Assembly (NCBI GenBank): GCA_009839485.1
Contig: VXPQ01000001.1
Coordinates: 34,711 to 98,710, forward strand
Reading direction: 5' to 3'
DNA: 64,000 bases
Origin: Bacteroidetes bacterium SB0662_bin_6
GTDB taxonomy: Bacteria; Bacteroidota; Rhodothermia; Rhodothermales; VXPQ01
Translations under genes and position numbers: made by a program
Notes under the pieces: generated by a model
What the model saw: only the letters and a program-made list of their open reading frames with translations
What the model was told of the DNA's origin: nothing
The model's database searches: none
Shown: positions 11,162 to 47,361 of the stretch, piece by piece
Position numbering within the stretch: position 1 is the stretch's first letter
Layout of the letters: the number at the start of each line of letters is the position of its first letter

Positions 11162-11179
11162 ATCATTCAAGGAAATATC

Positions 11180-13468: not shown

Positions 13469-13479
13469 GATCGAAGGCT

Positions 13480-14769: not shown

Positions 14770-14905
14770 AATGTTATCTGTTCGCGGCGTCAAGTGCGGA
14801 TGATTCCCAGGAGATGAATGACCGTAGGGGGCGAAGCTGCATCGTTTCCGGATTTCCGGCGAGGTTCGGGGGTTAGACCCTCCGAACCCATTCGTGATTC
14901 CACAA

Positions 14906-15985: not shown

Positions 15986-16151
15986 AACGAATGGACTCGC
16001 GGGAACGATCCTCTGTGGGATATCCCTGCAGACAGGGATCCTGTCAAAATAAGGGCATTACATCGAACACCTTGCTGTTGTGTATGTATGAGCGCAATCT
16101 CTCACACTCTGCGTTTGCTGGAAGCGTCTCTGGAGTATACATACCGGGGTG

Positions 16152-19135: not shown

Positions 19136-19211
19136 GAGACTCCTTCGGAAAAATCAACCTGCCGCCCACCGGTCGTTGCATATCCAAACGCAGACGCTAC
19201 GGAGACGGTTG

Positions 19212-20954: not shown

Positions 20955-21014
20955 TCTTCGGGAAACGCTCAGCCACCAGCCAACAGCAACGCAAATGCAC
21001 AAGATGCAATGCGC

Positions 21015-27900: not shown

Positions 27901-28860
27901 TCAGTTTTCTTCCGGCGAACGGAAACCCGCCTCCTCGATCGCTTCTACCGGCGGAAGCCACTGCCTGGAAAGACGATATCCCGCTCCGACAAACCCGAAC
28001 CCGTTGCGGACATTCCGCATCACGTTCGGCTGCACCAGCACTTCCGCATCGAATATCCCTCCGGGTGGATCCCAGGCTTCGTTGGCTGCAATAAACCGCA
28101 ACGTCACGTTCAGCAGGATGATGCCTACGCGCAGGTCGATACCTACATCGACCTGTTGCGCCAGATTTGCAGTGACTTCCAGGTAATCCCTGCGCAAATC
28201 CACCGGAATGATCCAGCCTCCATCGGTTTTTTCGTGCCTCAGGAGATAAGGAATGACGATACGGTCTGATTCGATATCCGTCTCGTTGGCAACCTTGTAC
28301 GCTACGGCATAATCAACCTCCACTTGCACGAGGCCGGGCACATCTCCCCGGATAAATACCGGCTGGACCACGGAAACAAGACGAATAACCGGATCCTGGG
28401 GAATGATTTCCGCCTCGGACGGCACCGTCACCTCGACCGTGGACTCCGCGCCGTCCGAACGAATCGCCGCAATCTCGTAGGTATGCCCGAAACGGGCCTG
28501 GAACGGGGCATGGTATACATGCGCATACTGGTCTGCAAAATCGACGATAACGGAATCTTGCCAGACGTGTTGCTCACCGGTCGTGTGGTTTATCGACACA
28601 ACCCGTGCATCCAACGACTCCGGCGTAGCGGGGACAAGGCGCTCCTCTACCGGAAAAACCCGCACCCATTGCGAATCAAGTTGCGGCGACAACACGCCAT
28701 AGATCGAATACGGCACATCCGTCCCCGTAACCGCTACCACATCTTCCTCGCAGGCGCTGAGGCCAAGGAGTATCGTCATAGCAAGCGTAACGGGCACAGC
28801 GGATCGTGCAACACGCCGGATGATCCGGAAACGGAACGGTATGCGGAGCGCCGCGCTCAT
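27901..28860 (-). CDS. DUF4249-family lipoprotein
   Basis: Internal ATG at 28860 overlaps the upstream receptor stop (ATGA, 28857-28860). ..AMTILLGLSAC contains a lipobox. C-terminal ..MRNVRNGFGFVGAG.. Paralog of 10082-11161. Confidence 0.7.
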   Translation of the reverse strand: MSAALRIPFRFRIIRRVARSAVPVTLAMTILLGLSACEEDVVAVTGTDVPYSIYGVLSPQLDSQWVRVFPVEERLVPATPESLDARVVSINHTTGEQHVWQDSVIVDFADQYAHVYHAPFQARFGHTYEIAAIRSDGAESTVEVTVPSEAEIIPQDPVIRLVSVVQPVFIRGDVPGLVQVEVDYAVAYKVANETDIESDRIVIPYLLRHEKTDGGWIIPVDLRRDYLEVTANLAQQVDVGIDLRVGIILLNVTLRFIAANEAWDPPGGIFDAEVLVQPNVMRNVRNGFGFVGAGYRLSRQWLPPVEAIEEAGFRSPEEN

Positions 28861-31281: not shown

Positions 31282-32604
31282 TTAACGCGCCCCGTTCGGG
31301 GCAGCCGTCGAAGCAGCATCCATGACCTCCCGAATGGCCTCGACCACAAAATCCGGCGCCTCCCGGTGAAACCACGTTCCACTGCGCCGGGTCTGCACAT
31401 GCCGGCGCCATGTGAGCCCGTCCAGCAGCTCTTCCCGTAATTCGGCCCTGGCCCGGACCCCGGCCTCCGTTTCGCCCACCCAGCGTGGAGTTTCGGGAGT
31501 TTGCAGGGATGTGAGCACAGCCACGGGAATATCCGGCAGCACCCCGGCGCCTGGAAACGCGCCTGTTTCCATCATATCCCTGTATATCCCGAATTCGCCG
31601 CGTTCCGCATCCGAAGCGAGACCGTATAACATATTCCTTCCGGCAAGATATCGATCCATGGACTCCTTATCCATGGCGCCAAGTCTTTGCCCTTCCCCTT
31701 CATGCACCGGTTCCACCAGCACCAACCCTGCTACGGCATCCGGATAGCGCACCGTAAATGTCCGGGCGAAAACGGCTCCGAGTCCATGCGCCACGAGGAT
31801 GTACGGCGGCTCAACCTCCAGATTCTGCAAGAGGGTATGGAGTTCTTCCGCAATTCCGGGGAGTGTCGTTTCGGACTGACGGGACGACGGCAAGCCATCC
31901 GAATATCCCAGACCCGAACGCGAATACGAGATGGCCCGGGCAAACGCCTGCACATCATGGTGTACATAATCCCATACGCGCAGGTCTTCGCCCAGATCGG
32001 ACACGAAAACAACGGGAATGCCTTCGCCTGCATCCAGTGCATACAGATTGTACCCCCCCGCATCCACTTTCCGCCCGAGAGGACCCTCAAGCATATCCAG
32101 CTCGCGGTATTTCACCCGCCGCTCGAGCCGATCCAGGCGCTGTTGCACCCGCTCCCAGGAAAAGCGATCCACAGATGTAACGCCGCCGGGCGGAGCGAGC
32201 GTCACCGGCCCCATGCTTGCCTCCTCATCGGAACAAACCCCCACAAACACTCCGTCCGGCTCCCGCTCGAGCTCGCAATGTATGCGCATGGAAGGCCACC
32301 AGGCAAAGGACAGCATCCCCTCCAGCAAACGCACTCCCTCCACACGGAATTGATCCTGCGTAAGGTGTTCGACATGCAGGCGCGCCTCCGTCGACTCGCC
32401 GGCCTCGGGAAAAACGATCGTCACGCCGAAAGGCGTACCGCCGGGATTCTGCATGAATCCGGTCCATCTGCCTGCCTCTATGATATCGTCGGCCGGCACG
32501 GAAGTTTGGGCCTGAGCATGCCGAAGATCACACGAAAGAAGGAATACAGCGGCGCAAAACGCCATCGCGACAAAACGCATGGGTACGTAAAACGGTTGGT
32601 TCAT
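31282..32604 (-). CDS. secreted two-domain protein with C-terminal alpha/beta-hydrolase fold lacking the canonical nucleophile
   Basis: The track start is TTG; ATGs at 32604 and 32580 are candidates. Signal ..FVAMAFCAAVFLLSC... The fold aligns with alpha/beta hydrolases, but the elbow reads AHGLGA and the HG site reads SDLG. Confidence 0.6.
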   Translation of the reverse strand: MNQPFYVPMRFVAMAFCAAVFLLSCDLRHAQAQTSVPADDIIEAGRWTGFMQNPGGTPFGVTIVFPEAGESTEARLHVEHLTQDQFRVEGVRLLEGMLSFAWWPSMRIHCELEREPDGVFVGVCSDEEASMGPVTLAPPGGVTSVDRFSWERVQQRLDRLERRVKYRELDMLEGPLGRKVDAGGYNLYALDAGEGIPVVFVSDLGEDLRVWDYVHHDVQAFARAISYSRSGLGYSDGLPSSRQSETTLPGIAEELHTLLQNLEVEPPYILVAHGLGAVFARTFTVRYPDAVAGLVLVEPVHEGEGQRLGAMDKESMDRYLAGRNMLYGLASDAERGEFGIYRDMMETGAFPGAGVLPDIPVAVLTSLQTPETPRWVGETEAGVRARAELREELLDGLTWRRHVQTRRSGTWFHREAPDFVVEAIREVMDAASTAAPNGAR

Positions 32605-32626: not shown

Positions 32627-33862
32627 TTATCCTTCGCTCGCCATACGGGCAAGCGTATTCAGATTGTTCCGGGCGGTTCGATTGTCCGGATCGAGCCGAA
32701 TCGTCATTTCCCAGGCCTGACGCGCCTCGTCATACCGCTCGGCGTTTCCGTACGCCACGCCCAGATTCAACCAGGCGTCCGTCAACGACGGATCGCGATC
32801 GACGATCATCCGGTATTGCGCGATCGCCCCGTCGGTATCGCCGCTCTCCAGCATCAGCGACGCCAGATTCACGTGCATCCGAAGATCGTTCGGAATGATG
32901 GCGATAGCCCGCTTGTAGGCATCCAGCGCCCGGTCGTACATCCCCGCCTTGCGGTGCACCTCGCTCAGATGCAGCCAATTCTGCACATCGCTGGGATCCC
33001 GATTCACTGCCTCGTGCGCCTCGTTGATATCCTGCTGGATTTGCTGAGCCTCTTCGGCCAGCGCAAGATGAATCTCCGCCTCATCCTCCTCGCCAAGGCG
33101 CATCAGCGCCTGCCCGAGATTGTACTGCGCACCATGATGCCACTGACGTTCCTCGACCACCATGCGGAGTTGCGCCACGGCCTCCTCCACCTCACCCATG
33201 CGGAGTAATTGTGTCCCGATGACATAGCGGTAGTCCACGCTCTCGGGCCTGATTTTGGCAGCGCGTTTCGACAAGGCGATGGCCGTCTCGAAATCCCCCA
33301 TCTCCTCATGGAGCTGCCCGAGCCACATATACGCCGTCGTATTCGTACTGTCAATCATGATAGACTGCTCGTACGACCACTGCGCACTGTCGGCCATACC
33401 GAGTTTCGCATAGGTGCGCCCCATTTCGAGATACAAATGCGTATTCGGCATGACCGCCTCCTCGCGCCGGAAAGCGTCAATCGCATCCCGGAGTTGCCCC
33501 CTGCGAAAATAATTGATGCCGATATTCATGTGCGCCCCCCGGTACTGCTCGTCTGCGGCAAGGGCGGTGGCGTACGCTGCATTGGCAATCTCGAGCTGGT
33601 TCAGATCCGTGTAGATTCTGCCGCGCAGGAAGTAGGTATCCGCCAATTCCGGCACATACTTCTCTACGCTGTCGGTGAGCGCCAGCGCATGCAGATAATT
33701 CCCCTGACGCCACGCAGCCTCGGCCTGAAGCATAAACCGTTGTACGTTCAGATCCAGCGATTCGCGGAGCTCTTCTGTCCGGGTAAGCGACTCCTCCGCG
33801 TCCTGCTGCGCGCATCCTGCAAGCAGGCAGGCGACCGCCACCATGCAAAACCGTCGTATCAT
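32627..33862 (-). CDS. TPR-repeat lipoprotein
   Basis: The track start at 33880 is GTG; ATG at 33862 gives MIRRFCMVAVACLLAGC. TPR periodicity is present. Confidence 0.8.
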   Translation of the reverse strand: MIRRFCMVAVACLLAGCAQQDAEESLTRTEELRESLDLNVQRFMLQAEAAWRQGNYLHALALTDSVEKYVPELADTYFLRGRIYTDLNQLEIANAAYATALAADEQYRGAHMNIGINYFRRGQLRDAIDAFRREEAVMPNTHLYLEMGRTYAKLGMADSAQWSYEQSIMIDSTNTTAYMWLGQLHEEMGDFETAIALSKRAAKIRPESVDYRYVIGTQLLRMGEVEEAVAQLRMVVEERQWHHGAQYNLGQALMRLGEEDEAEIHLALAEEAQQIQQDINEAHEAVNRDPSDVQNWLHLSEVHRKAGMYDRALDAYKRAIAIIPNDLRMHVNLASLMLESGDTDGAIAQYRMIVDRDPSLTDAWLNLGVAYGNAERYDEARQAWEMTIRLDPDNRTARNNLNTLARMASEG

Positions 33863-33898: not shown

Positions 33899-35689
33899 TT
33901 ACCGGAGTTCTCCGGAGTGCCCTGCGGCAGGTTCCGCCGGGCGCAACGCAGCGGATCCTTCGACAAGAATCACTTCCTGTCCGGCCTCCACCTCCGCAAA
34001 GCGCTCAACAAGGCCGCTCGGCCAATGCACTATTAGACTATCTATTTGCCGACGTGCTCCCAACCCGAATACCGCAGGCAATGCGGACTGCGACAAAAAA
34101 CTCGAACCCGATCGGACACGGCGCTCCATGCGCAAATCGCCGACCACCGCCTCGATCCGGGCGCCGAGCGCACTGCGGTTACTGGCGCGCCCTTCCAGCC
34201 GGACATGCAGCCAACCTGATTCGTTGAGATCGTTGCGCCAGAGATGCGCCGGCCCCGCGTTTTCCAGCAGCAATACGTCGAGATCCCCGTCCCGGTCGTA
34301 ATCGGCATAGGCAGCGCCGCGGGCCACCATCGGCTGCGCAAGCACACCGGTCGTTGCAGGCGCCTCATCGAATATCCCGTCGCCCCGATTCAAAAACAGC
34401 TGCGCCGGCTCCGCAAACGTCGCCCCTTCGAGAATCTCGGCAATATGCTCCAGCACATGCCCATTGGCGAGAAAGAGGTCGAGGTCTCCATCCAGATCCG
34501 CATCGAAAAGAAACAGGCCGAATGTGAGGGTCCCCATCGTCGGAAATCCGACACGGGAGATGGTGGCCCGATCCGTGAAATAACCGCCCGAAGCATGCCG
34601 GAAAACGCTCACGGTTTCCTGGGTGAAATTGCCTACGAAGATGGTCGTTTGCCCGGTGCTGTCCACCACGCCCGCATCCACCCCCATACCGGCCCGCGAT
34701 TGTCCATGCTGGTCGTAGGCGACGCCGCTGCGCACCGCGGACTCGACAAACGTGCCGTCCCCGCGATTCACGAACAACAGGTTCCGCTCCGTGTCGTTGG
34801 CCACATACAGGTCGGAATGTCCATCTCCGGTTACGTCCAGCTCGGTCACCCCGAGCGTCTTGTCCAGCACGGGATCGATAGCCCCCGAAAAACCGGCTTC
34901 CTGCGTCGCATCGACGAAGGAACCATCGCCCGTGTTGCGATAGAACGTGCTGGCGACGCCCGCATAATTCTGGGGTGTGCAATAGGCTTTCTCTCCCCCA
35001 TGAAAACAGGGAATATCCGTCTCGGGCGTCCAGGATACATAATTGCCCACGAATAAATCGACCCAGCCGTCCCCATCGGCATCGAAGAATGCGGCGGATG
35101 TGCTCCAGTACGCCTCGTCCGCAAGCCCCGCCTCTTCGCCGACCTCCTCAAACCGTCCGCCGTCATTGCGAAAGAGCAGGTTCTCGTGCAGGGTGGTCAG
35201 AAAAAAATCCGTATCCCCATCGTTGTCGTAGTCGGCGGCGGCCACGCCGAACCCGTATGCTTCCATGCCGCTGAGGCCCGCTGCGACGGAGACATCCTCA
35301 AACGTGCCGTCGCCCAGATTGCGATAAAGCCGCAGCGCTTCGACCGGCTCGTCGGAAACACGGGCCCAACGCCCGCCGCCCACCAGCAGAATGTCCTGCC
35401 AGCCATCGCCGTCGTAATCGAGAAACGCCCCGCCGGGTCCCACTATTTCGGGCATCCATTTCTGGCCAAGGCCTCCATTCTCGTGCCGATATGCACCGAG
35501 GCCGGCTTCCTCGGTAACCCTCGTAAAAGCAAGTGCCGCGGACAAAGACCCGGAAGAGACATCCTCTCCCCCCATACACCCGGCGGCAAGTCCCGCGCAG
35601 CACACAGCTATCGCGATGCCGGCGCAACGCATGGCCCAATGCACTCCACGACGCGTCCTGCCCATCGGGCGCCCGGATATACTCATCAT
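33899..35689 (-). CDS. CRTAC1-family lipoprotein (FG-GAP/VCBS plus ASPIC/UnbV)
   Basis: ATG overlaps the upstream TGA (ATGA, 35686-35689). ..AVCCAGLAAGC contains a lipobox. Family repeats and C-domain present (..NRSALGARIE..RVRSGSSFLSQS..). Confidence 0.85.
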   Translation of the reverse strand: MMSISGRPMGRTRRGVHWAMRCAGIAIAVCCAGLAAGCMGGEDVSSGSLSAALAFTRVTEEAGLGAYRHENGGLGQKWMPEIVGPGGAFLDYDGDGWQDILLVGGGRWARVSDEPVEALRLYRNLGDGTFEDVSVAAGLSGMEAYGFGVAAADYDNDGDTDFFLTTLHENLLFRNDGGRFEEVGEEAGLADEAYWSTSAAFFDADGDGWVDLFVGNYVSWTPETDIPCFHGGEKAYCTPQNYAGVASTFYRNTGDGSFVDATQEAGFSGAIDPVLDKTLGVTELDVTGDGHSDLYVANDTERNLLFVNRGDGTFVESAVRSGVAYDQHGQSRAGMGVDAGVVDSTGQTTIFVGNFTQETVSVFRHASGGYFTDRATISRVGFPTMGTLTFGLFLFDADLDGDLDLFLANGHVLEHIAEILEGATFAEPAQLFLNRGDGIFDEAPATTGVLAQPMVARGAAYADYDRDGDLDVLLLENAGPAHLWRNDLNESGWLHVRLEGRASNRSALGARIEAVVGDLRMERRVRSGSSFLSQSALPAVFGLGARRQIDSLIVHWPSGLVERFAEVEAGQEVILVEGSAALRPAEPAAGHSGELR

Positions 35690-37392
35690 GGACGGGACCC
35701 GATAGGTGTCAGATCGCCCGTCCCTTCGACAAGAAACACATCCCGACCCCCTTCCACGCCGGAAAACCGCTCGACAAGGCCACTGGGCCAGTACACGGTC
35801 AACGTATCGACTTCCTCATGACTGCCGAGTCCGAACGCAGCCACCGGCTCCGATTGCGAAAGATAACTGGATCCCGTCCGAATGCGCCGTTCCATGGTCA
35901 GTTCGCCCAGTTTGGCCGTAATGCGGGTACCAAGACCGTCGCGATTGCTGGTACGCCCCTCGACATGCACACGCAGATAGCGCCCGGTGGCCGTATCATT
36001 GCGCCAAAGATGCACCGCCCCTCCATTCTCGGTCACGAGAATGTCCTGATCCCCGTCCCGGTCGTAATCCGCATAGGCCGCCCCGCGGCCAACGAGCAGA
36101 TCCGTCCATACCCCTTCTCCCGGAATAAATTCATCGAACACGCTATTCCCCCGATTCAGGAAAAGCTGTGCGGGCTGCCGGTAGCGGATACGGTCGTTCT
36201 CGCCGGTTCTGTCGGGATGCACATGCCCGTTGGCCACAAACAGGTCCAGGTCCGTATCCATGTCCGCATCCATAAGAAACAACCCGAACGTAAGGGACAG
36301 CATGCTCGGGAATCCGACGCGGGACAGGCCCGCCCGCCCGATGAACGATTCCCCCTCCTCATGGCGGTACACCCCGATCATCTCACCCGAAAAATTGCCG
36401 ACGTACAGTGAATAACGGCCCGTGCTGTCCGTAATCCCTGCGTCAATGCCCATGCCGGCGCGAGCTTCTCCGTGTTCGCTGAACGCAAACCCGCTCGGTA
36501 CGCCGATATCGGTGAACGTGCCGTCCGCATTATTCCGAAACAGCAAATCGCCCTCTCCGTCGTTCGCCACGGCGAGATCGGGCCAGCCGTCGAAATTAAA
36601 ATCCAGTTCGGCCACGCCCAGCGATTTGCCAAGCGTCGGCATGAAACCGGCGGCTTCCGTGCGATCCGCAAACACGCCGTTCCCGTCGTTCACATAATAC
36701 CGGCTCTGCACTCCGGTATACACCGCAGGGTGGCAATACAATTTGACCGTTCCCTGCGACGGACAAAAGATGTCCGTTTCGGGGATCCATGCCACATAGT
36801 TCGCCACATACAGATCAACGTCCCCGTCCCGGTCCGCATCGAAGAAGATAGCGGAACTGCTCCAGATGTCGTTCCCCTCCAGGCCCGCCTCGCGGGTGGC
36901 TTCGACGAATCGCCCTCCCTCGTTTCGAAAGAAAAAATTGTCCTCGAGACAGGTAATATAGAGGTCTGCGTCCCCGTCGTTGTCGTAGTCGGCAGCCACC
37001 ATCCCGATCGTATACCCGTCCACGCCGGTGAGCCCCGCGGCTTCCGTTACCTCCGTGAAAGAGCCGTCCCCGTTATTCCGGTACAGAAACAGCGCCTGGG
37101 CCGGTATTTCAGGATCCCAATTCCCTCCGCCAAGGAGCAGAATGTCGCTCCAGCCATCGCCGTCGTAATCGAAGAATCCCCCCCCGGACCCCATTTGCTC
37201 GGGGTACCACTTGTCTCCGGCGGCGCCATTGACGTGCCTGAAGGCGCCAAGCCCGGCTTCCGCAGCCACATTCGTAAAAACAGGAAGCCGGACCCCCTCC
37301 TCATCTGCCGACTGCGGCGTGGAGAGCGAACATGCACTCAACCAACCCGCAGCGAAACAGACAAGGACAGCGCCCGGCCAGCCCGTCAACAA
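35686..37392 (-). CDS. CRTAC1-family (lipo)protein; start uncertain
   Basis: Family repeats and the ASPIC/UnbV C-domain are present. The only in-frame ATG (37473) overlaps the upstream gene by 65 nt. TTG codons at 37392/37389 start just after the upstream stop (37409) and give LLTGWPGAVLVCFAAGWLSAC. Confidence 0.75.
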   Translation of the reverse strand: MLTGWPGAVLVCFAAGWLSACSLSTPQSADEEGVRLPVFTNVAAEAGLGAFRHVNGAAGDKWYPEQMGSGGGFFDYDGDGWSDILLLGGGNWDPEIPAQALFLYRNNGDGSFTEVTEAAGLTGVDGYTIGMVAADYDNDGDADLYITCLEDNFFFRNEGGRFVEATREAGLEGNDIWSSSAIFFDADRDGDVDLYVANYVAWIPETDIFCPSQGTVKLYCHPAVYTGVQSRYYVNDGNGVFADRTEAAGFMPTLGKSLGVAELDFNFDGWPDLAVANDGEGDLLFRNNADGTFTDIGVPSGFAFSEHGEARAGMGIDAGITDSTGRYSLYVGNFSGEMIGVYRHEEGESFIGRAGLSRVGFPSMLSLTFGLFLMDADMDTDLDLFVANGHVHPDRTGENDRIRYRQPAQLFLNRGNSVFDEFIPGEGVWTDLLVGRGAAYADYDRDGDQDILVTENGGAVHLWRNDTATGRYLRVHVEGRTSNRDGLGTRITAKLGELTMERRIRTGSSYLSQSEPVAAFGLGSHEEVDTLTVYWPSGLVERFSGVEGGRDVFLVEGTGDLTPIGSRP

Positions 37393-37408
37393 AAAACCGG
37401 AGATCGGA

Positions 37409-38494
37409 TCAGAAGGAGATATTGACGGCGAAGCGCTGGATTGCGTCGAAAACACCAAAGTCCGTGTAGGCATAATCCACACCGAATCCAATGCCCGAAG
37501 CACTGTATTGCAAACCTGCTCCGAAGCTGAATCCTTCTTCCGAGTCTTCGCCCACAAAAGCGCGCCCCAACCCGCCGCGCAGGGACAGGATGTTCATGAG
37601 CGTGTACTCGCCGCCGACCTTGACATGCTCCGCAAAGTCACGCGGACGCTGCGCATCCACGGAAACCATGAAGGAATGCATGTTCGGATCCATGCTGGTG
37701 AGATCCATCACGTCCATCGAAATACCGATCTGGAACGTCAGGGGAAGTTCGAAACGCTCCCGCTCGTACACCAGCTCCCGCGAGAAATTCCGGGTGCTCA
37801 TAGCGATCGTGAGGCTCTCGAAGCCCGTGTCGTACAGCACGCCGAAATCGACCGCGATGGTATTCAGCGCATAATCCTCGAAGGTGGCGGATGTACCGTC
37901 GTCAAGAGACGTAGCGCCGTCGTCCGAACGCGCCTTGGCGTGCGAGCCCAGGTCCTGCTTGGCGTACTTGACATGCGCGCCTACGGAAAAGCGATCCGTA
38001 AACGACCGGGCATACCCTACGCCTACTGCAAGCGCGGTCGGGTTATAGACCCCCGTATCGATGTAGCCGTCTTCGTTTTCCGCGCGAACCGTGCCCAGAA
38101 AATCCCCGTAATCCACGTTCACAAGGGAAAGGCCGACCACTCCGTAGTTTCCTCCGCCCGGGCGGTACGCCACGCTCGCGGCATTGTACTGGATGTCCAC
38201 GAGGTAGTTCATGATGCCGAATCCCGCACTGAAATTACTCCCCATGCGAGCCATGGAAGCGGGATTGTAAAACATCGCCGACGACGAACCTGTCGTGGAC
38301 GACGTCACGGCGCCGCCCATGGCGGTCGCCCTCGCATCCACGGACGCAGAGAGAAACTTGAAGCCGGTCTGACCGCGCTTGGTCGTTTCCACCTCCTCGT
38401 CCGGGCTGGGGATAAACGTCTGCGAAAACGCCGACGGGGCCGTCAGTAACCCGATGGCTACGAGGAAGCACGTAGTAACAATACTCCTTTTCAT
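37409..38494 (-). CDS. PorV/PorQ-family outer-membrane beta-barrel
   Basis: ATG at 38494 (the track start at 38500 is TTG). MKRSIVTTCFLVAIGLLTAPSAFS signal. ..FKFLSASVDARATAMGGAV..SAMFYNPASM.. signature. Ends ..AVNISF. Paralog of 21015-22052. Confidence 0.7.
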   Translation of the reverse strand: MKRSIVTTCFLVAIGLLTAPSAFSQTFIPSPDEEVETTKRGQTGFKFLSASVDARATAMGGAVTSSTTGSSSAMFYNPASMARMGSNFSAGFGIMNYLVDIQYNAASVAYRPGGGNYGVVGLSLVNVDYGDFLGTVRAENEDGYIDTGVYNPTALAVGVGYARSFTDRFSVGAHVKYAKQDLGSHAKARSDDGATSLDDGTSATFEDYALNTIAVDFGVLYDTGFESLTIAMSTRNFSRELVYERERFELPLTFQIGISMDVMDLTSMDPNMHSFMVSVDAQRPRDFAEHVKVGGEYTLMNILSLRGGLGRAFVGEDSEEGFSFGAGLQYSASGIGFGVDYAYTDFGVFDAIQRFAVNISF

Positions 38495-38581
38495 AATCAA
38501 GCCTGATTGAATGTCGATAAAGGGTCTCGTGTGTAGAGGCCTCGGGGGTGAGCCGACAAACGGCCCACCCCCTTTGCCGGG

Positions 38582-40921
38582 TTACCGAATGACCGTGAAT
38601 TTCCGGAATACCTGATCGTTCGTTGCATTGTCGGTAATCACGGCAATGTAAATACCGCTCACGAGCAACTGCCGGGCACTTGTGGTGAGGTTCCACTTCT
38701 CGTCCCCACTGCCGTCGGTGTGTTCGATCGTCTCGATGAGTTCGCCGATCTCCGAGTAAACCCTGATCGTGCAATCTCCCGGAATGTTGAAGAAAGCGAT
38801 TTCGTCCTCCTTCGTGAAACGAATGGACTGGTCGGAACCGAGATTCACCGGGTTCGGCACTACGCGAACATCCTCGATCGTCCCGGTAGCCCCGAACGGC
38901 GGTCGCTTCAGGTTGGCCGGCTGGTAGGTCTGCGTCAGGTACCGGCTGCTGCGCAGCGGCACGCCTCCGCCGGGAACCCCCGTAAGCCCATTCGGATCGT
39001 TGGGAAGGTTTTCGCCAACCGCAACGAGATAGTAGTAGTAATCCGTACCGCGGACGGCGGTCTGATCGTTAAACGATGTCGCCGAGGCAGCCAGCATGCC
39101 GCTTTCGCAATCGGGACGAGCGCCAGCCAGACAAGTGTATGGCATTTCGTCTTCCACCCGGCGAAGCCTTCCCTCCTGCGCATTCTGGTCCATACTGCTC
39201 AACGCTCCCATCAGATCGCCTGCTTCACGTACGTAGTCGTACGCCGGGCTCCACCAGACATTCCGCTCCGTACGGTACACTTCCCAACCGGTGCGCGTCG
39301 GACCGCCCGACAGCGGCTCCCAGGAAAGTTCGATCTGACCGGGCTTGCCTGCTACCGCAAACGTACTCGGCGGAAGCGGCGGCTGTGCAACGGGGTAGGT
39401 CGTGAAATTGTTCGACGCCTCGTAGACCGCCCTGGCATTCACGAAGTTCTTGAAAAGCGAATCCCTTGCCGTCAGTACCCACTGGTTCTTTGTCTGGGCC
39501 TCGAGCCCCAGATCGTACACGTCATGGAAACTGTACGCTACATCGTCCTTGATGACCCCGTCGCCGTTGGCGTCGTAGCGAATGATCGCATCCCTGTTCC
39601 GACCCGTGAGTTTATACTCCCGGCCGATAGCGAGTGCGGCGTCGAAGTCGAGACCGCCCACGGAACGTGCGAACACGATACGCACCTCATCGCCAAAAGC
39701 CATTTCGTAGGGGCCGTACGCCACCGTTGCGGCGTGGCCTCCCTGGCGGCCCTGGCTCGGATTGTTCGACGGATCCCAGAAATTGCCGTCAGGCTCGATA
39801 CGATCCGCCCACATCGGGCACATACGCGTGCGGGATACATCCGAAGAGCATCCTTCGGGCGCCGGCGTGTGGTCCTCGCGCGTGAGGATGCCGTCTTCGT
39901 AATACTCGAGGTGCGGAGCTCCCGCCGCCGTCAGTTTCTCGTCCTGATCCATGAAGCCGATCGTATGCGGCTGCACATTGCGATCGAAGGAGGCGTCGCT
40001 TATGGAATTCGGAGCGTACAAAGGCATCTCCCCATCGAAATAGGCCCCGGCCAGACGACCCACCGTATCTCCTGTCGCCTGAGACCAGTGCGCTTCGAGA
40101 ATCGGCGCCCCGAGGTTGTCCCAGTTGCCCGCGGAATAATCCGGCTCGTAGCCCTTCCACAGATAATACGCCGTGATGTCGAGCGGATAATCGGCATGGC
40201 CGTCGCCTACGGCGTCCACCATGCTGTACTTGCCCCACACCTGGCCGCCATCACCGATCCATGCGGCCGTATCCGTACCACGCCAGCGATGAATCCAGTA
40301 GAAATAGGTTTCCTCGAGATTCTGGCCATCCAGCTCGATTTCGGGGTCGTCGTCAGTATTCCCCGTATTCGTGAAGAGATACTCGACAATGTGGTATTCG
40401 TCGTGAAACGCATTGCTCCAGGCGTATGCGCGCTTGCGGACGGTGATGCCGATGTTCATGTTCCATACGGATTCCTGAACCCGGTCGGCCGGCAGGTTCG
40501 GATCGACCTCGCTCACAACCGCCACCCGGTCGAACGAAGCCACGCCGTCTACCGTGACCTCCGTGTCCTCCCATTTGGCAATCAACTTGTCTTCCACCGG
40601 AAAGGCGAAATCCACGCCGGGGTCGCGGGGACCGATGCGCGACGTGTAGTACGGATACGCCTGTCCGTTGGGATCCGTCCAGTTCTTGGCGCCGATCCAG
40701 AAGGCTCCGGAGCGCTCGTGCGTCGCATTCCGGTGAATGGCCGGATAGGCCATCAGGTTCGACGTTTCGTTCTTGACGCCCACCTGGGGGTACCCGTCCT
40801 GGTAGTCTCCGATGTCGATCCACGAAACGGTGAACTGGGCAGCGGCCGTACCGGCGCCCAGTACCCCCAACGTGAACGCAAGAACAGCGCCCGTGAAAAG
40901 TTTGTAACTGGCTTTCATCAT
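38582..40921 (-). CDS. secreted 779-aa protein, paralog of 22137-24383, with T9SS type-A C-terminal sorting domain
   Basis: ATG at 40921 gives MMKASYKLFTGAVLAFTLGVLGAGTAAA/QF. Blocks shared with the paralog: YPAI, FWIGAKN, HDEYHIVEY.FTNTGN.DDDPEIE, AYGPYEMAFGDEV, TARDSLF. Ends ..CTIRVYSEIGELIETIEH..WNLTTSARQLLVSGIYIAVITD..KFTVIR. Confidence 0.7.
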   Translation of the reverse strand: MMKASYKLFTGAVLAFTLGVLGAGTAAAQFTVSWIDIGDYQDGYPQVGVKNETSNLMAYPAIHRNATHERSGAFWIGAKNWTDPNGQAYPYYTSRIGPRDPGVDFAFPVEDKLIAKWEDTEVTVDGVASFDRVAVVSEVDPNLPADRVQESVWNMNIGITVRKRAYAWSNAFHDEYHIVEYLFTNTGNTDDDPEIELDGQNLEETYFYWIHRWRGTDTAAWIGDGGQVWGKYSMVDAVGDGHADYPLDITAYYLWKGYEPDYSAGNWDNLGAPILEAHWSQATGDTVGRLAGAYFDGEMPLYAPNSISDASFDRNVQPHTIGFMDQDEKLTAAGAPHLEYYEDGILTREDHTPAPEGCSSDVSRTRMCPMWADRIEPDGNFWDPSNNPSQGRQGGHAATVAYGPYEMAFGDEVRIVFARSVGGLDFDAALAIGREYKLTGRNRDAIIRYDANGDGVIKDDVAYSFHDVYDLGLEAQTKNQWVLTARDSLFKNFVNARAVYEASNNFTTYPVAQPPLPPSTFAVAGKPGQIELSWEPLSGGPTRTGWEVYRTERNVWWSPAYDYVREAGDLMGALSSMDQNAQEGRLRRVEDEMPYTCLAGARPDCESGMLAASATSFNDQTAVRGTDYYYYLVAVGENLPNDPNGLTGVPGGGVPLRSSRYLTQTYQPANLKRPPFGATGTIEDVRVVPNPVNLGSDQSIRFTKEDEIAFFNIPGDCTIRVYSEIGELIETIEHTDGSGDEKWNLTTSARQLLVSGIYIAVITDNATNDQVFRKFTVIR

Positions 40922-41029
40922 GATCTCGTTCGAATGTACAGAATAACTGCCGGTGATTTCATCCCCGGATGGACACGTCGAAGGGGCGACGGACACAATG
41001 CCGCCGCCCCCCGGACGCATCAATTTGCT

Positions 41030-44000
41030 CTAAAAGCTTACTCGCAGACCGAGCGTGACCCGGCGCGGATTCAGGAAGGTATTGAACCGGTGGTTCGGCA
41101 TATCGATGTATGCCTTGTCGTCCAGCACCTGATCCAGCTTACTACCGGAAACCTCTTGCCAGGCGCTGCCCGTCCACTCATGATACGTACCCGTATCGGC
41201 GGCATACACCCAGCCCTTCTCGAAGCCCGCATCGGGAGCCTCCGGCAGCGTGGCCTTGGCTTCGATCGGCTGCCAGGCGACATCCCAGTCGCGGAATACG
41301 CCCGGGCGGTCGTTCCCCGGAACCCATTCGTACGGCTTGGAACTGCCTTCCGGCAACTGGTCGAACATATCCTCCGGCAAATGGAGCGACCGCATGTAAT
41401 CCCCGGCATCGTCTCCCTGACGTTCGAGGAACGCGCCGCCCCAGTTCAAATGCCGCAGATTGAACACATTGTCGATGTCCGCAAACAACTGCAACTGCGT
41501 GGGGCCGGCGGCAAAGTGCTTCGTAAACCGCAGGTCGAAATTCCAGTAATCCCGGTACCGGAGATTGTTGCGCACTTCCGGAATGCTTGCGGCAAAATCG
41601 CCCGCCCAGGTCAGCGCAACGCCCTGACGCCATTCGCCGAGGAGGCTGATCCGGAAATTGCCCAGGGGGGTCTTCCCGCCGACCTCTGGGCCGAAGCCCT
41701 GCGGCGTAAGCACCAGCAGATTCGCGCGGGCGAACGGCTCGGCCACCGGCGCAGACTGCCTGTAGTCCGTGGCGGTGCGCAGCCAGTTCACCATCTGGAA
41801 CGAGTTCTCGAAGAAATTCGAGTACCCGAAGTTGCCCGACTTACGCTGCTGGTAGGTGAAGTTCGCAAAACCCTGGACCCACCTGCCGCGGTTCTTGGAG
41901 ATGCTGAACTCCGCTCCCCGCGTATCCGAGTAATGCCACGGCATCTTCGTAGAGTAATTCACCACGCCGCCAAGGCTCTGGAAATTGACGTTCCGGGTTT
42001 CTTCCTTGTTATCCCGATAGTACCCGGAAACCCGCAGCAGGAAGAGATCCAGCACGTTCTGGTCGAAGCCCAGTTCGTACGCCACCGTCTTGGGCAGGGG
42101 GTGGTTCGGATTCGCGATCTGATCGATGCCGCCCGCCTTGGACTGCTGAATGCCCAGTACGTCGTAGGCGTCCATCATCTGGCGGAAGTGACCGTAGTTG
42201 AAGTACAACTTGCTGTTGGTCGTGATCGGGAAGGAAATGCCTACGCGGGGGCTGACGCCAATCTGGGACCCGACGGATTCTCTTGGAAGATCCTCATCCA
42301 GTCTGTCCCTGTCGAAGCGCAGGATGCCATCGTAGAATCCGTACTGCCACCATTCCGTATTCGGGTCGAAGTAATCGAGGCGCACGCCGAGATTCGCGAT
42401 CATGCCCTGGAATTCGAGCTTACCCTGGACATAGGCGGCGCCCTGTACCGGCGAGCCGTCCCACGGCCAGCGCGCGCCCGACTGCGGGCCTGCCAGCGCA
42501 ATGTTTATGCTCGCGTAGTTCATGTCGTAGTCGCTGTAGATCAGCTCGGCGCCCGTCTGGAAAAGAAAGAAACGATTGAGCTGGCTCGTAAGATCGAAGC
42601 GACCGGTGTACACCGTCACGGACGAGGTATCGCGCGTCTTCACCCAGTGGCCGCCCGTCGATTCGTCCGTCAGGATATTACCGCCGATCCCGGCAAAGCC
42701 AAAGGGCTCCTCACCGGAGCAATACGGCGTAGACGCACCGTCGCCGGTGACATCGGATCCGCCGCCGAAGCACACGAGACCCGCGTGCCCTTCGAAGCCC
42801 GGATTGGGGCGACCGAAGTTGTCCGTCCAGGGAACACGAACGAGTTCATACGGCTGGCAGGACTCGCCATTGGGACCCGTGCCGTCTGCCGAACATACGA
42901 ACGATCCGTCCCGCAGCGTCGGAAGACGGGTCTGGTAATTCGACTCCATGCGCTGCAAGCCCACCTCGTAAAAGGTGTTCTGATTCAGCGTATGCGTGAA
43001 CTGCAAGCCCAGCATGTCGTGATCGACATCGCCGATGGGCCATTGCCCGTCCGTGAACAACTCGTCCCCGCGAATGTCGATCTCCCAGATCTGCTTGCCT
43101 ACGTCACGCCCCTCACTCTGCCACCATGGATACGCCGGGATCTGGCCCGTCCACAACTGCGTGCCCCGGGCGTTTTCATGCCAAAGCTGGCCGCGCTGCC
43201 GCGTGCCGAGCGCATGGGCCGTCAGTTTCATGCCGGGGCCCACGTTGGAAATCAGCTTCACCTGATAGGTATTGTCCGTGTATGCTTCCCGGTCCTGCGG
43301 ATACAGATACGCCGTTTGAGATCCGCGATAAGAAGCAAGGAAGCGCAGACCGCCGAGATGCTGGCTGATACCCGGAATCGGACCGCCGATCGTGATATCG
43401 GCATCGTAATCCGGCATTGTGATCTCGTTGCTCTTGCGCCACATGTAGTGCCAGTATTCGATCATGTCCGCTTCGGTCACGTCGAACCCTTCATCGTGCA
43501 AACGGCTAATAATGCCCGCCCAACCCGGGAACGGCTTGTACTGCCGTGCTTCGTAGGCATCCCATACGCCGCCCGAACCGTTCAGCCGAACCGAGGGATC
43601 CAGCACCGGACGCGCAAACCATGTGTTGCATTCGATGACGGAAGAAGGATAGGAACAACTCGAGGGCAACTGGTGATAGGGATCGAAGGTCTTGTCCTGA
43701 GCCGGCGCAAAACGAAGGAGCGCATCCACCGTGTATTCCGTGCGGGAAGGCTCTTTCGTAGCCACATTCACGATGCCCGAGCGCACGTTTCCGTATTCCG
43801 CGCTGAACCCGCCCGTTTGCACCTGCACTTCTTCAAGCGACGTGTAACTGACGCTGGTCATGGGATCGTTGTGGCGGCCCGTGCGCATCTGCAAGCCGTC
43901 CACAATAAAGGCGACCTCGTTGAGCCCGCCGCCGCGCACTCTCATGCCCGGCTCGATGCCCGCCTGCAGATCCAGCACTTCCGAGACGCCCGCTACAGGC

Positions 44001-44416
44001 AGATCCTGGAAATCCTGGGCGCTCAGGTTCGCCACGTTCGCCGAAACGTCCGCCTGCACAATAGGCTGCTCGGCCACGACGACCACTTCGTCAAGTCCTA
44101 CCGTTTCTTCCTGAATCTGGAAATTAACGGTGGAGGTAAGGTCGGTACTTACCTGAATTCCCTCCTGTACCGACGCCGTGTATCCGATGAACGATGCGCG
44201 CAGGTCGTACGTACCGGGACGCACATTCAGAATGTGGTAGAACCCTTCCGCATCGGTTACGGCGCCTTGCGTCGTCCCCTCGATCACGACATTCACCCCG
44301 GGAAGCGATTCTCCGGTGGCCGTATCGGTTACCTGACCAGCGATCTTGCCTTGCTGCGCCCAGGCAGTGGCCGGGATAAGCAGAGCAAGCGTAAACAGTA
44401 ACTTTGCCAGTCTCAT
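41030..44416 (-). CDS. large (1128-aa, SusC-sized) TonB-dependent receptor
   Basis: ATG at 44416 gives MRLAKLLFTLALLIPATAWA. 62 of the first 79 residues are identical to the 24437-27667 product by hand count. Plug present; ends ..TLGLRVSF. Confidence 0.85.
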   Translation of the reverse strand: MRLAKLLFTLALLIPATAWAQQGKIAGQVTDTATGESLPGVNVVIEGTTQGAVTDAEGFYHILNVRPGTYDLRASFIGYTASVQEGIQVSTDLTSTVNFQIQEETVGLDEVVVVAEQPIVQADVSANVANLSAQDFQDLPVAGVSEVLDLQAGIEPGMRVRGGGLNEVAFIVDGLQMRTGRHNDPMTSVSYTSLEEVQVQTGGFSAEYGNVRSGIVNVATKEPSRTEYTVDALLRFAPAQDKTFDPYHQLPSSCSYPSSVIECNTWFARPVLDPSVRLNGSGGVWDAYEARQYKPFPGWAGIISRLHDEGFDVTEADMIEYWHYMWRKSNEITMPDYDADITIGGPIPGISQHLGGLRFLASYRGSQTAYLYPQDREAYTDNTYQVKLISNVGPGMKLTAHALGTRQRGQLWHENARGTQLWTGQIPAYPWWQSEGRDVGKQIWEIDIRGDELFTDGQWPIGDVDHDMLGLQFTHTLNQNTFYEVGLQRMESNYQTRLPTLRDGSFVCSADGTGPNGESCQPYELVRVPWTDNFGRPNPGFEGHAGLVCFGGGSDVTGDGASTPYCSGEEPFGFAGIGGNILTDESTGGHWVKTRDTSSVTVYTGRFDLTSQLNRFFLFQTGAELIYSDYDMNYASINIALAGPQSGARWPWDGSPVQGAAYVQGKLEFQGMIANLGVRLDYFDPNTEWWQYGFYDGILRFDRDRLDEDLPRESVGSQIGVSPRVGISFPITTNSKLYFNYGHFRQMMDAYDVLGIQQSKAGGIDQIANPNHPLPKTVAYELGFDQNVLDLFLLRVSGYYRDNKEETRNVNFQSLGGVVNYSTKMPWHYSDTRGAEFSISKNRGRWVQGFANFTYQQRKSGNFGYSNFFENSFQMVNWLRTATDYRQSAPVAEPFARANLLVLTPQGFGPEVGGKTPLGNFRISLLGEWRQGVALTWAGDFAASIPEVRNNLRYRDYWNFDLRFTKHFAAGPTQLQLFADIDNVFNLRHLNWGGAFLERQGDDAGDYMRSLHLPEDMFDQLPEGSSKPYEWVPGNDRPGVFRDWDVAWQPIEAKATLPEAPDAGFEKGWVYAADTGTYHEWTGSAWQEVSGSKLDQVLDDKAYIDMPNHRFNTFLNPRRVTLGLRVSF

Positions 44417-44503
44417 TTGCATGACCTTCTGGATTGATGTGAATGACTTCAAAAGGGCGCCTGCCGGGCATATTGCGCGGACAGAACGCCTAAAATCCGA
44501 CAT

Positions 44504-47346: not shown

Positions 47347-47361
47347 TTTTTCCGGCCAAAT

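What the first reader, a model, noticed from the sequence alone, without database searches (positions are those of the whole stretch)
37409..44416. Triad 2: independent paralogous copy of the receptor, CTD protein and PorV/Q-like unit
Seen: the same three-gene order and similar spacing as triad 1. The receptors are 62/79 identical over the first 79 residues by hand count, then diverge. The CTD proteins share collinear blocks (YPAI, FW.GAKN, HD.YHI.EY.F.NTGN.D.DPEIE, AYGPY..A.G.EV.IV, TARDSLF, YYYYL, VPNP, SGIYIAV.TD, KF.VIR). This copy also has an extra ~50-residue insert with a Cys pair (..PYTCLAGARPDCESG..) before the YYYYL strand. Retention of all three genes in both copies, with divergence concentrated in the putative ligand-facing N-domains, is the pattern expected for a functional unit that has sub-specialised for different ligands.
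Basis: partly seen in the sequence, partly recalled or inferred. Interest (0 to 1): 0.75.

Follow-up and report, generated by a model that had tools for sequence, protein, structure and literature searches.

The report
TonB receptor, secreted protein, PorV-like anchor

Summary
On the minus strand, 37409-44416 encodes a 1128-aa SusC-like TonB-dependent receptor (T2), a 779-aa secreted protein with no Pfam family (X2) and a PorV/PorQ-family barrel (V2). These are paralogous to T1-X1-V1 at 21015-27667, at 44%, 36% and 52% identity. All six genes are intact. Compared with their orthologues they give dN/dS of 0.07-0.16. Each copy has its own orthologues, so the duplication is ancient.

The triad is the core of a longer duplicated unit of 9-10 genes. 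The rest of the unit encodes FG-GAP/ASPIC and TPR lipoproteins and a second TBDR with a DUF4249-like lipoprotein.

Across public genomes and metagenomes the order T-X-V is nearly obligate: 55 of 63 loci seeded from X, and 55 of 56 seeded from V. X has a beta-supersandwich N-domain, an fn3 domain and a divergent type IX secretion (T9SS) C-terminal domain (CTD). X relatives with a canonical type A CTD lack both T and V.

Best reading (inferred): V is the cognate anchor or shuttle for X's CTD and places a ligand-binding surface protein next to the receptor. The substrate is unknown. I found no published description.

The parts
41030..44416 (-). T2: 1128-aa TonB-dependent receptor. It has a signal peptide, a CarboxypepD_reg-like N-terminal extension, a TonB-box-like LDEVVVV motif, a plug and a large barrel. 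The conserved C-terminal signature is VDQVLxDKAYIDMPN.
   Evidence: Pfam CarbopepD_reg_2 82.8 bits and Plug 33.2 bits. The N-terminus matches the SusC homologue 8aa4 at E 1e-12. 44% identical to T1. omega 0.07-0.15. The signature peptide is conserved in 41 loci.
38582..40921 (-). X2: 779-aa secreted protein of a family with no Pfam model. It has a signal peptide, a ~480-aa beta-supersandwich N-domain, a long helix, an fn3 domain with an 87-aa loop carrying a Cys pair, and a ~95-aa divergent T9SS-type CTD (VVPNP...SGIYIAV...KFTVIR).
   Evidence: No Pfam hit. AF2 models have pLDDT 80.7/pTM 0.81 (full length) and 85.3/0.89 (N-domain). There are 267 homologues, all named hypothetical or 'T9SS type A sorting domain-containing'. 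omega 0.10-0.13.
37409..38494 (-). V2: 361-aa PorV/PorQ-family outer-membrane beta-barrel. It is neither canonical PorV nor canonical PorQ.
   Evidence: NF033709 183.6 bits (cut-off 90). PorQ equivalog 92 bits against a cut-off of 220. PorV equivalog 54 bits against 250. The family profile hits F. johnsoniae PorV 6h3i_F at E 1.3e-12. omega 0.12-0.15.
35686..37473 (-). Fa: FG-GAP/ASPIC-UnbV (CRTAC1-like) beta-propeller lipoprotein. An accessory gene of unit 2.
   Evidence: Pfam FG-GAP_3 and UnbV_ASPIC. Lipobox LSAC. FG-GAP/ASPIC genes lie downstream of 50 of 59 triads.
33899..35689 (-). Fb: a second FG-GAP/ASPIC-UnbV lipoprotein.
32627..33862 (-). Pa: TPR lipoprotein.
31282..32604 (-). H: alpha/beta-hydrolase-fold protein with a signal peptide.
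   Evidence: It is conserved after the triad in orthologous loci L004-L015.
28857..31172 (-). t2: a smaller (~770 aa) TonB-dependent receptor with a CarboxypepD_reg N-terminal domain.
   Evidence: 49% identical to t1 at 11180-13573.
27901..28860 (-). D2: DUF4249-like lipoprotein that partners t2.
   Evidence: 40% identical to D1 (10082-11170), which hits DUF4249. Lipobox LSAC.
24437..27667 (-). T1: the paralogous receptor of triad 1.
22137..24383 (-). X1: the paralogous secreted protein, from a divergent subfamily. It is 33-40% identical to all X2-type members.
21015..22052 (-). V1: the paralogous PorV/PorQ-family barrel.
10082..21002 (-). Accessory genes of unit 1: FG-GAP/ASPIC (19212-21002), TPR (17891-19135), FG-GAP/ASPIC (16152-17894), TPR (14906-15985), TPR (13480-14793), small TBDR t1 (11180-13573) and DUF4249 lipoprotein D1 (10082-11170).

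Best explanation
Triad 2 is one of two ancient tandem copies of a conserved outer-membrane module.

Shown:
- T is a SusC-like TonB-dependent transporter with an N-terminal extension, a TonB box, a plug and a large barrel.
- X is a Sec-exported protein made of a beta-supersandwich N-domain, an fn3 domain and a C-terminal beta-sandwich that carries the T9SS CTD motifs.
- V is a PorV/PorQ-family barrel.
- The order T-X-V is almost invariant across Rhodothermales, Marinimicrobia/Fidelibacterota and unclassified metagenome contigs.
- All genes are under purifying selection.
- X relatives with a canonical type A CTD have neither T nor V beside them.

Inferred:
- X crosses the outer membrane through the T9SS.
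- Its specialised CTD is not handed to the general PorV/sortase route. It is captured and kept by the cognate barrel V, as PorQ keeps PorZ and as PorP/SprF-like barrels keep type B CTD cargo.
- V thereby tethers X on the cell surface beside T.
- X's N-domain and variable fn3 loop bind a macromolecular substrate, probably a glycan, and pass it to T for TonB-energised import.
- The downstream FG-GAP/ASPIC, TPR and DUF4249 lipoproteins and the second TBDR act as accessory surface or periplasmic components.
- The two units in the window serve two different substrates.
For: - Domain assignments.
- Module conservation seeded from X in genomes: TBDR upstream in 59/68 loci, PorV/Q-like gene downstream in 66/75, full triad in 55/63.
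- Module conservation seeded independently from V in metagenomes: X immediately upstream in 55/56, with X identity down to 30%.
- Purifying selection on all six genes.
- X structure: confident AF2 models. The N-domain matches the N-terminal supersandwich of GH94 phosphorylases, dextran dextrinase and GH116, and the YidC P1 domain. The C-terminal part matches PorZ 5m11.
- CTD motifs PNP, GIY and K-x-x-x-x-R are visible in the sequence.
- CTD class tracks the partner genes. Of 119 V-linked CTDs, 62 hit CHU_C and 18 hit Por_Secre_tail, all weakly. Stand-alone X relatives hit Por_Secre_tail in 8/9 cases. P0167, P0168, P0170 and P0107 also carry Por_Secre_tail (on record, weak for P0168 and faint for P0170) and have no T or V beside them. 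Fisher p is about 1e-7, not corrected for relatedness.
- Multi-domain relatives carry Por_Secre_tail above threshold in 7 of 8 scanned, together with FG-GAP_2, BNR/sortilin, LRR or beta-helix/pectinesterase-like modules.
- Precedents for cargo held by a dedicated barrel: PorQ-PorZ (PMC5562754) and type B CTD with PorP/SprF-like proteins (PMC9143113, PMC12618676).
- T9SS-positive status of cultured Rhodothermaceae (PMC5053529).
- Accessory proteins carry lipoprotein signals followed by acidic stretches.
Against: - No physical interaction, localisation or transport was tested.
- The window copies' CTDs fall below the TIGR04183 and Pfam thresholds.
- The fold match of the N-domain is partial (TM about 0.3) and is to a generic carbohydrate-associated supersandwich, so binding versus catalysis is undecided.
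- A census of recurrent neighbours found no glycoside hydrolase or lyase family, so a glycan substrate is only a guess. That guess rests on fold, fused modules in relatives and sugar-catabolic genes flanking the window on the other strand.
- Some X genes with the X-type CTD occur as X-X tandems without T or V nearby (L002, L064).
- T9SS core genes of this organism lie outside the window and were not seen.
Confidence: 0.5

Rival explanations
1. The architecture is the same, but X is a surface enzyme (a depolymerase of a new fold family) and not only a binding protein. It would cut a polymer at the cell surface, and T would import the products.
For: - X has many invariant acidic, His and Arg residues, including HD at 172-173, the NTGNxDxDPEIE block, DxVGDGH and DANGDG.
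- N-domain omega is very low, 0.055-0.14.
- Its structural neighbours are parts of carbohydrate-active enzymes.
- One relative is fused to a beta-helix/pectinesterase-like module.
Against: - The matched part of the GH94/GH116 enzymes is their non-catalytic N-terminal sandwich, and X has no (alpha/alpha)6 catalytic domain.
- X has no hit to any Pfam or NCBIfam catalytic family.
- The acidic motifs look equally like Ca2+ sites of extracellular proteins.
Confidence: 0.2
2. T-X-V is not a nutrient-uptake device. It would instead be an export or surface-assembly device, for example T acting like the Myxococcus Oar-type TonB-dependent exporter, or X being a structural cell-surface or adhesion protein whose placement needs T and V.
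For: - T carries the CarboxypepD_reg N-domain found in Oar-like receptors. The Oar precedent is from my own knowledge and was not checked here.
- No degradative enzymes recur next to the module.
- FG-GAP, TPR and LRR partners are typical of adhesion or assembly proteins.
Against: - T has the SusC-type arrangement of N-terminal extension, TonB box and plug, and matches a SusC homologue.
- SSF inner-membrane symporters sit directly upstream of T in 23 loci.
- X has T9SS-type signals of its own, so it does not need another exporter.
Confidence: 0.12
3. V acts as a FadL-type channel for a hydrophobic or amphipathic substrate and not as a T9SS shuttle or anchor. X and T would be co-receptors for that substrate.
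For: PorV belongs to the FadL superfamily. The V profile also weakly hits FadL-family proteins 3dwo, TbuX and CymD (E 0.014-0.18).
Against: - The match to the PorV/PorQ family model is far stronger (183 bits), as is the match to PorV 6h3i (E 1e-12).
- The correlation between X's CTD class and the presence of V is not explained by a channel role.
Confidence: 0.06
4. Triad 2 is a decaying duplicate, or the gene order is a chance juxtaposition.
For: None found. A close relative (L083) lacks unit 2 at this locus, which shows only that the unit is dispensable in some genomes.
Against: - The ORFs are intact, with omega 0.07-0.15 against four orthologues at 68-95% identity.
- The same order recurs in more than 100 loci.
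Confidence: 0.01

Closest known systems
PorZ-PorQ (and PorU-PorV) pairs of the Porphyromonas gingivalis T9SS attachment complex
   Same: - A T9SS-exported protein is held at the surface by a PorV/PorQ-family barrel.
- Among NCBIfam models, X's CTD matches the C-terminal domain of PorZ best (E 4e-5 and 3e-6). PorZ 5m11 is the second-ranked fold match.
- Among the equivalog models, V2 scores highest on PorQ.
   Different: - X has no PorZ beta-propellers, and V fails the PorQ and PorV equivalog cut-offs.
- The pair is encoded together with a TonB-dependent receptor and occurs in several paralogous copies per genome. It is therefore a cargo-specific module and not a core part of the secretion machine.
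Type B CTD cargo with genetically linked PorP/SprF-like shuttle or anchor barrels (SprB-SprF, PG1035-PorP; Flavobacterium johnsoniae, P. gingivalis)
   Same: - The gene for a dedicated outer-membrane barrel lies immediately downstream of its cargo gene.
- The cargo has a non-type-A CTD. 62 of 119 V-linked X CTDs give weak CHU_C hits.
- Cargo relatives with a type A CTD lack the dedicated barrel.
   Different: - The barrel belongs to the PorV/PorQ family. There is no PorP/SprF model hit.
- The CTD does not reach the CHU_C threshold.
- A TonB-dependent receptor is an obligatory third member.
SusC/SusD-type polysaccharide utilisation loci and utilisomes of Bacteroidota
   Same: - A large TonB-dependent transporter with the same arrangement of N-terminal extension, TonB box and plug is encoded with a surface protein placed next to it and with accessory surface lipoproteins.
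- Paralogous loci occur in tandem, presumably for different substrates.
   Different: - There is no SusD gene.
- T fails the SusC/RagA model (70-72 bits against a cut-off of 368).
- The partner is not a lipoprotein. It is a T9SS-type cargo with its own barrel.
- No CAZyme genes were recognised in the unit.
Rhodothermus marinus xylan locus Rmar_1070-1072 (TBDR, hypothetical protein with a Por CTD, hypothetical protein), described in PMC6987092
   Same: The gene order is the same in a cultured member of the same order. It sits next to the cell-attached, CTD-bearing xylanase Xyn10A.
   Different: Homology of Rmar_1071 and Rmar_1072 to X and V could not be tested here. No R. marinus protein appeared among the 120 best hits of an X search seeded from a Rhodothermaceae member. 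This is a lead and not a match.

Membership tests
PorV/PorQ family (NCBIfam NF033709) | Score above the family model's curated cut-off | tested here: met
   V2 183.6 bits and V1 176.4 bits against a cut-off of 90.
PorV/PorQ family (NCBIfam NF033709) | FadL-superfamily outer-membrane barrel related to structurally solved PorV | tested here: met
   The profile of 24 V homologues hits F. johnsoniae PorV 6h3i_F at E 1.3e-12, and FadL-family proteins more weakly. The structure of V itself was not modelled.
Canonical PorV (NF033710) or PorQ (NF033711) equivalogs | Score above the equivalog cut-off | tested here: not met
   PorV model: 54 and 60 bits against 250. PorQ model: 92 and 59 bits against 220. 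V is a separate subfamily.
PorP/SprF family | Match to the PorP/SprF family model | tested here: not met
   No PorP/SprF model appears among the NCBIfam or Pfam hits of V1 or V2 at E<=0.01.
T9SS type A CTD (TIGR04183 / PF18962 Por_Secre_tail) | Score above the model cut-off | tested here: not met
   X2 scores 16 bits against a cut-off of 23 on TIGR04183. X1 has no hit. Neither has a Pfam hit. Of 119 V-linked CTDs, 18 give weak hits, best E 3e-4.
T9SS type A CTD (TIGR04183 / PF18962 Por_Secre_tail) | C-terminal ~80-100-aa beta-sandwich with the conserved motifs (PNP near its start, GxY, basic residues at the extreme C-terminus) | tested here: met
   - VVPNP, SGIYIAV and KFTVIR/KFIVIR are present in both copies.
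- The AF2 model shows a beta-sandwich at residues 685-776.
- There are weak matches to the PorZ CTD.
- Most multi-domain relatives pass PF18962 at the same position.
- The motif definition is from my own knowledge of the CTD literature.
T9SS cargo | Secretion depends on the T9SS | not testable with these tools
   This needs genetics or proteomics. T9SS core genes of this organism are outside the window. Cultured Rhodothermaceae are listed as CTD-positive in PMC5053529.
Type B CTD (PF13585 CHU_C) | Score above the model cut-off | tested here: not met
   No hit for the window copies. 62 of 119 V-linked CTDs give only sub-threshold hits, best E 5.6e-5.
TonB-dependent receptor | Plug domain | tested here: met
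   PF07715 scores 33.2 bits (T2) and 42.0 bits (T1) against a cut-off of 23.9.
TonB-dependent receptor | TonB box ahead of the plug | tested here: inconclusive
   LDEVVVV (T2) and LEEVVVT (T1) lie between the N-terminal extension and the plug. They resemble the SusC-type TonB box as I recall it. There is no model-based test.
TonB-dependent receptor | 22-strand barrel domain | tested here: inconclusive
   T1 hits OMP_b-brl_3 at 30.7 bits (cut-off 27). T2 has no barrel-model hit. Both end in an aromatic residue (SF). The structure was not modelled.
SusC/RagA family (TIGR04056) and canonical PUL | Score above the SusC/RagA cut-off | tested here: not met
   70.3 and 72.4 bits against a cut-off of 368, with only the N-terminal ~140 residues matched.
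SusC/RagA family (TIGR04056) and canonical PUL | Adjacent SusD-family gene | tested here: not met
   No SusD-like Pfam hit occurs in any of the genes between 10082 and 44503.

The most novel reading that the evidence does not exclude
T-X-V defines a previously unrecognised class of TonB-dependent uptake complex in Rhodothermota, Marinimicrobia/Fidelibacterota and related lineages. [quoted passage not shown] It is then fixed next to the transporter by its own PorV/PorQ-family barrel through a third, module-specific class of CTD.
Probability: 0.35. Interest if true: 0.8.

Novelty: new variant of a known kind. Interest (0 to 1): 0.62.

Why it matters
Two well-studied systems of the Bacteroidota superphylum have so far been treated separately: TonB-dependent nutrient capture (SusCD utilisomes) and type IX secretion with cargo-specific shuttle or anchor barrels. 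This module appears to join them genetically.

If the inferred mechanism holds, four things follow:
- It gives a function to a large protein family with no Pfam model: at least 511 clusters at 50% identity with E<=1e-30.
- It defines a new PorV/PorQ subfamily with a dedicated cargo.
- It adds a CTD class whose presence predicts the partner barrel.
- It explains how abundant marine and saline Rhodothermales and Marinimicrobia equip non-SusD receptors with surface binding proteins.

It also gives annotators a simple rule. A TBDR, followed by an X-family protein, followed by a PorV/Q-like gene, is one unit.

Tried and rejected
- **Gene conversion at the receptors' 5' ends.** I tested this as an explanation of the 63/79 identity. 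Third-position identity among identical residues there is 0.47-0.58, the same as in the rest of the gene, so the conservation is at protein level.
- **Shared upstream regulatory motif of T1 and T2.** The alignment shows nothing convincing upstream of the start codons.
- **Promoter and terminator scan of 27000-45800.** Counts were no higher than in shuffled sequence.
- **dN/dS between the paralogues.** At 36-52% identity the synonymous sites are saturated, so I used orthologue comparisons instead.
- **Sequence search of the PDB with the X profile.** Only fn3 domains and the PorZ CTD were hit, and nothing for the N-domain. A single-sequence PDB search with V found nothing, but a profile worked.
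- **Full-length fold search.** It was dominated by fn3 tandems, so the N-domain was modelled separately.
- **Substrate inference from neighbours.** A census over 164 loci found SSF symporters, TIG-domain lipoproteins, CTD proteins and a multihaem/TPR protein, but no GH or PL families.
- **Literature searches for the cassette.** None found a description.
- **Link to the R. marinus xylan locus.** It could not be tested.
- **The 1893-aa antisense ORF at 38720-44401.** It is a shadow ORF. T2 and X2 share a frame and together contain one TTA, no CTA and no TCA codons.
Full report
**1. What is at the coordinates**

All relevant genes are on the minus strand.
- The finding's span, 37409-44416, holds three ORFs: 41030-44503, 38582-41023 and 37409-38500.
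- The probable starts are 44416 (MRLAKLL..., T2, 1128 aa), 40921 (MMKASYKL..., X2, 779 aa) and 38494 (MKRSIV..., V2, 361 aa).
- A second triad lies at 24437-27667 (T1), 22137-24383 (X1) and 21015-22052 (V1).
- G+C is about 0.60 throughout.

**2. Check of the observation**
- BLASTP between the copies gives 44% identity over the full length for the receptors, 36% for the middle proteins and 52% for the third proteins. E-values run from 0 to 1e-115.
- The first 79 receptor residues are 63/79 identical.
- The 'extra insert' is real but needs re-description. It sits in a hypervariable loop of an fn3 domain. The loop is 43 residues in the shortest family members, 61 in X1 and 87 in X2. The Cys pair PYTC...C is conserved in X2 orthologues.

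**3. What the proteins are**
- **T.** T has a CarboxypepD_reg-like N-terminal extension and a Plug domain, with LDEVVVV/LEEVVVT between them. Its N-terminus matches a solved SusC homologue, 8aa4. It fails the SusC/RagA model badly, at 70 bits against a cut-off of 368.
- **V.** V passes the PorV/PorQ family model (183.6 and 176.4 bits against 90). It fails the PorV and PorQ equivalogs. A profile of 24 homologues hits F. johnsoniae PorV 6h3i_F at E 1.3e-12.
- **X, sequence level.** X has no Pfam family. Its homologues are named 'hypothetical protein' or 'T9SS type A sorting domain-containing protein'.
- **X, structure.** AlphaFold2 models are confident: pLDDT 80.7 and pTM 0.81 for the full length, 85.3 and 0.89 for the N-domain. 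The model has a ~480-residue beta-rich N-domain, a long helix, an fn3 domain and a C-terminal beta-sandwich.
- **X N-domain.** Its best structural neighbours are the non-catalytic N-terminal supersandwich of GH94 phosphorylases, dextran dextrinase and GH116, and the YidC P1 domain. E-values are 1e-6 to 1e-4, but TM is only about 0.3. This is a carbohydrate-associated but generic fold.
- **X C-terminal domain.** It carries PNP, GIY and a basic C-terminus. It matches the PorZ CTD weakly. It is below the thresholds of the type A and type B CTD models.

**4. The unit is larger than a triad**
- Downstream of each triad come FG-GAP/ASPIC-UnbV (CRTAC1-like) proteins and TPR proteins. After them come a smaller TBDR and a DUF4249-like protein. 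Unit 2 also has an alpha/beta hydrolase.
- Corresponding proteins of the two units are 31-57% identical.
- All the FG-GAP, TPR and DUF4249-like proteins have lipoboxes followed by acidic stretches.
- The window therefore holds two tandem copies of an ancient unit of 9-10 genes and about 16 kb.
- In one close relative (L083, X1 87% identical) only unit 1 lies between the same flanking genes. The units are thus gained or lost as blocks. L084 and LXNI01000026.1 (L102/L118) carry both.

**5. Both copies are functional**

Nei-Gojobori dN/dS against orthologues at 68-95% identity is 0.07-0.16 for all six genes.

| X domain | omega in X2 | omega in X1 |
|---|---|---|
| N-domain | 0.055-0.10 | 0.066-0.14 |
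| fn3 | 0.14-0.26 | 0.13-0.26 |
| CTD | 0.063-0.15 | 0.045-0.060 |

(All values.)

- X1 is only 33-40% identical to every X2-type sequence and has its own orthologue series. The duplication is therefore old.
- The receptor N-terminal conservation is protein-level constraint and not gene conversion.

**6. The triad is a conserved module**
- A scan of one genome per species, seeded with the X alignment, returned 79 distinct loci. Most are from Rhodothermales and a few from Marinimicrobia/Neomarinimicrobiota. Counting these together with L001 and L002 (81 loci), a T homologue lies directly upstream in 59/68 loci with room. A V homologue lies directly downstream in 66/75. The full triad is present in 55/63. 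FG-GAP/ASPIC genes follow 50/59 triads.
- An independent scan of metagenome contigs, seeded with the V alignment, found X directly upstream of V in 55/56 cases with room. The one exception is a truncated HSP. T was upstream of X wherever sequence was available, at X identities down to 30%.
- An exhaustive profile search found 511 clusters (at 50% identity) with E<=1e-30.

**7. CTD class tracks the partner genes**
- Of 119 distinct CTDs from V-linked X genes, 62 give weak CHU_C (type B-like) hits, 18 give weak Por_Secre_tail hits and 16 hit FlgD_ig. None is strong.
- X relatives without T and V are mostly type A-like. Eight of nine tested give Por_Secre_tail hits, and two of those are above threshold.
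- Four further relatives with Por_Secre_tail on record (P0167, P0168, P0170, P0107) have neither a TBDR nor a PorV-like neighbour.
- Eight multi-domain relatives were scanned, fused to FG-GAP_2, BNR/sortilin, LRR or beta-helix modules. All carry Por_Secre_tail, seven of them above threshold.
- A raw Fisher test gives p about 1e-7. The sequences are related, so this is only indicative.
- The exception is a group of X-X tandems that keep the X-type CTD without an adjacent V (L002, L064).

**8. Mechanism**

The pattern matches two known T9SS principles:
- PorQ anchors PorZ, and PorV anchors PorU (PMC5562754).
- Type B CTD cargo is secreted and held by a genetically linked PorP/SprF-like barrel (PMC9143113, PMC12618676).

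I therefore infer the following:
- V is the cognate shuttle or anchor for X's specialised CTD.
- The constant presence of T means the X-V pair works at, or with, the receptor. X most likely acts as a surface ligand-binding (or ligand-processing) partner, and T performs TonB-driven import.
- Cultured Rhodothermaceae are T9SS-positive (PMC5053529).

The substrate is unknown.
- The window's flanks encode rhamnose, uronate and lactate catabolism, but on the other strand, and these flanks are not conserved in distant loci.
- Recurrent neighbours are SSF symporters, TIG-domain lipoproteins and other CTD proteins, not CAZymes.

**9. Comparison with what is known, and novelty**
- The module works like a SusCD-type utilisation system joined to a T9SS cargo-anchor pair.
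- It is not a member of the SusC/RagA family, of canonical PULs, of the PorV, PorQ or PorP equivalogs, or of the standard type A or B CTD families. Each of those threshold tests failed.
- Full-text searches found no description of the cassette.
- A possible cultured example is the R. marinus xylan locus, Rmar_1070-1072 (PMC6987092). Homology could not be checked.

**10. Verdict**
The unit is functional and retained. The claimed pattern of divergence is not accurate, and ligand specialisation was not tested.
- The biology is a new variant of known kinds, of moderate to high interest.

Noticed in passing
window 10082-13573 and 27901-31172 (-): Each unit ends with a second, smaller TonB-dependent receptor (~770-800 aa) followed by a DUF4249-like lipoprotein (t1/D1 and t2/D2). 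The pairs are 49% and 40% identical between the two units. This is a second kind of receptor-lipoprotein pair inside the same unit.
   Followed up: partly
L083 (ERZ26167216 contig, 2.9 Mb), whole locus: A close relative has only unit 1 between the same flanking genes: ADH and alpha/beta hydrolase on one side, GMC oxidoreductase on the other. Unit 2 is therefore present or absent as a block among related genomes.
   Followed up: partly
L164:8458-11848 (Rhodocaloribacter litoris CP076718.1): In this cultured species the X gene of a T-X-V module is split by a DDE transposase into fragments of 184 and 615 aa. This is a natural knockout that could be used experimentally.
   Followed up: no
window 41055-41103 versus 24462-24510 (-), approximate coordinates: At the 3' ends of T2 and T1 a ~49-nt stretch is almost identical, though the genes are about 55% identical at DNA level elsewhere. 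Third-position identity there is 0.91. The stretch encodes the family signature VDQVLDDKAYI(D/N)MPN. Orthologues use varied codons for it, so a short gene-conversion tract is possible.
   Followed up: partly
window 38720-44401 (+): A 1893-aa ORF lies antisense to X2 and T2. It is explained as a shadow ORF. The two genes share a reading frame and contain one TTA, no CTA and no TCA codons, and its product is rich in Arg, Val and Ala.
   Followed up: yes
window 45802-58627 and 1-9807: The flanks encode sugar catabolism.
- Between 45802 and 58627: aldehyde dehydrogenase, PfkB kinase, DeoC/LacD aldolase, UxaE tagaturonate epimerase, LutABC-like lactate utilisation, an aldolase_II+SDR fusion typical of rhamnose catabolism, an FGGY kinase and an isomerase-like TIM barrel.
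- Between 1 and 9807: GMC oxidoreductase, gluconate 2-dehydrogenase subunit 3 and Gfo/Idh/MocA oxidoreductases.
   Followed up: partly
window 60000-64000: G+C falls from about 0.63 to 0.54-0.58, and a phage-integrase-family gene lies at 62319-63320 (+). This may be the edge of an integrated element. No tRNA gene occurs anywhere in the window.
   Followed up: no
L002:7794-12205 and L064:7070-11403: Tandem X-X gene pairs have no TBDR and no PorV-like gene. They sit next to a divergently oriented FG-GAP/ASPIC protein that carries a Por_Secre_tail. These copies keep the X-type CTD and are the main exception to the CTD-partner rule.
   Followed up: partly
L109, L115, L116, L120, L121, L127, L149, L158 (e.g. 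L149:8411-11125): In eight metagenome loci a ~900-aa protein lies 0.3-1.7 kb downstream of V in the seven loci that hold the complete triad (L158 is cut off at V). It has cytochrome c554-like haem motifs, N-terminal membrane helices and C-terminal TPRs. A redox protein in this context is unexplained.
   Followed up: no
Rhodothermus marinus Rmar_1070-1072 (PMC6987092): The published xylan utilisation locus lists a TBDR, a hypothetical protein with a Por CTD and a hypothetical protein, in that order, next to the cell-attached xylanase Xyn10A. It may be the same module.
   Followed up: partly
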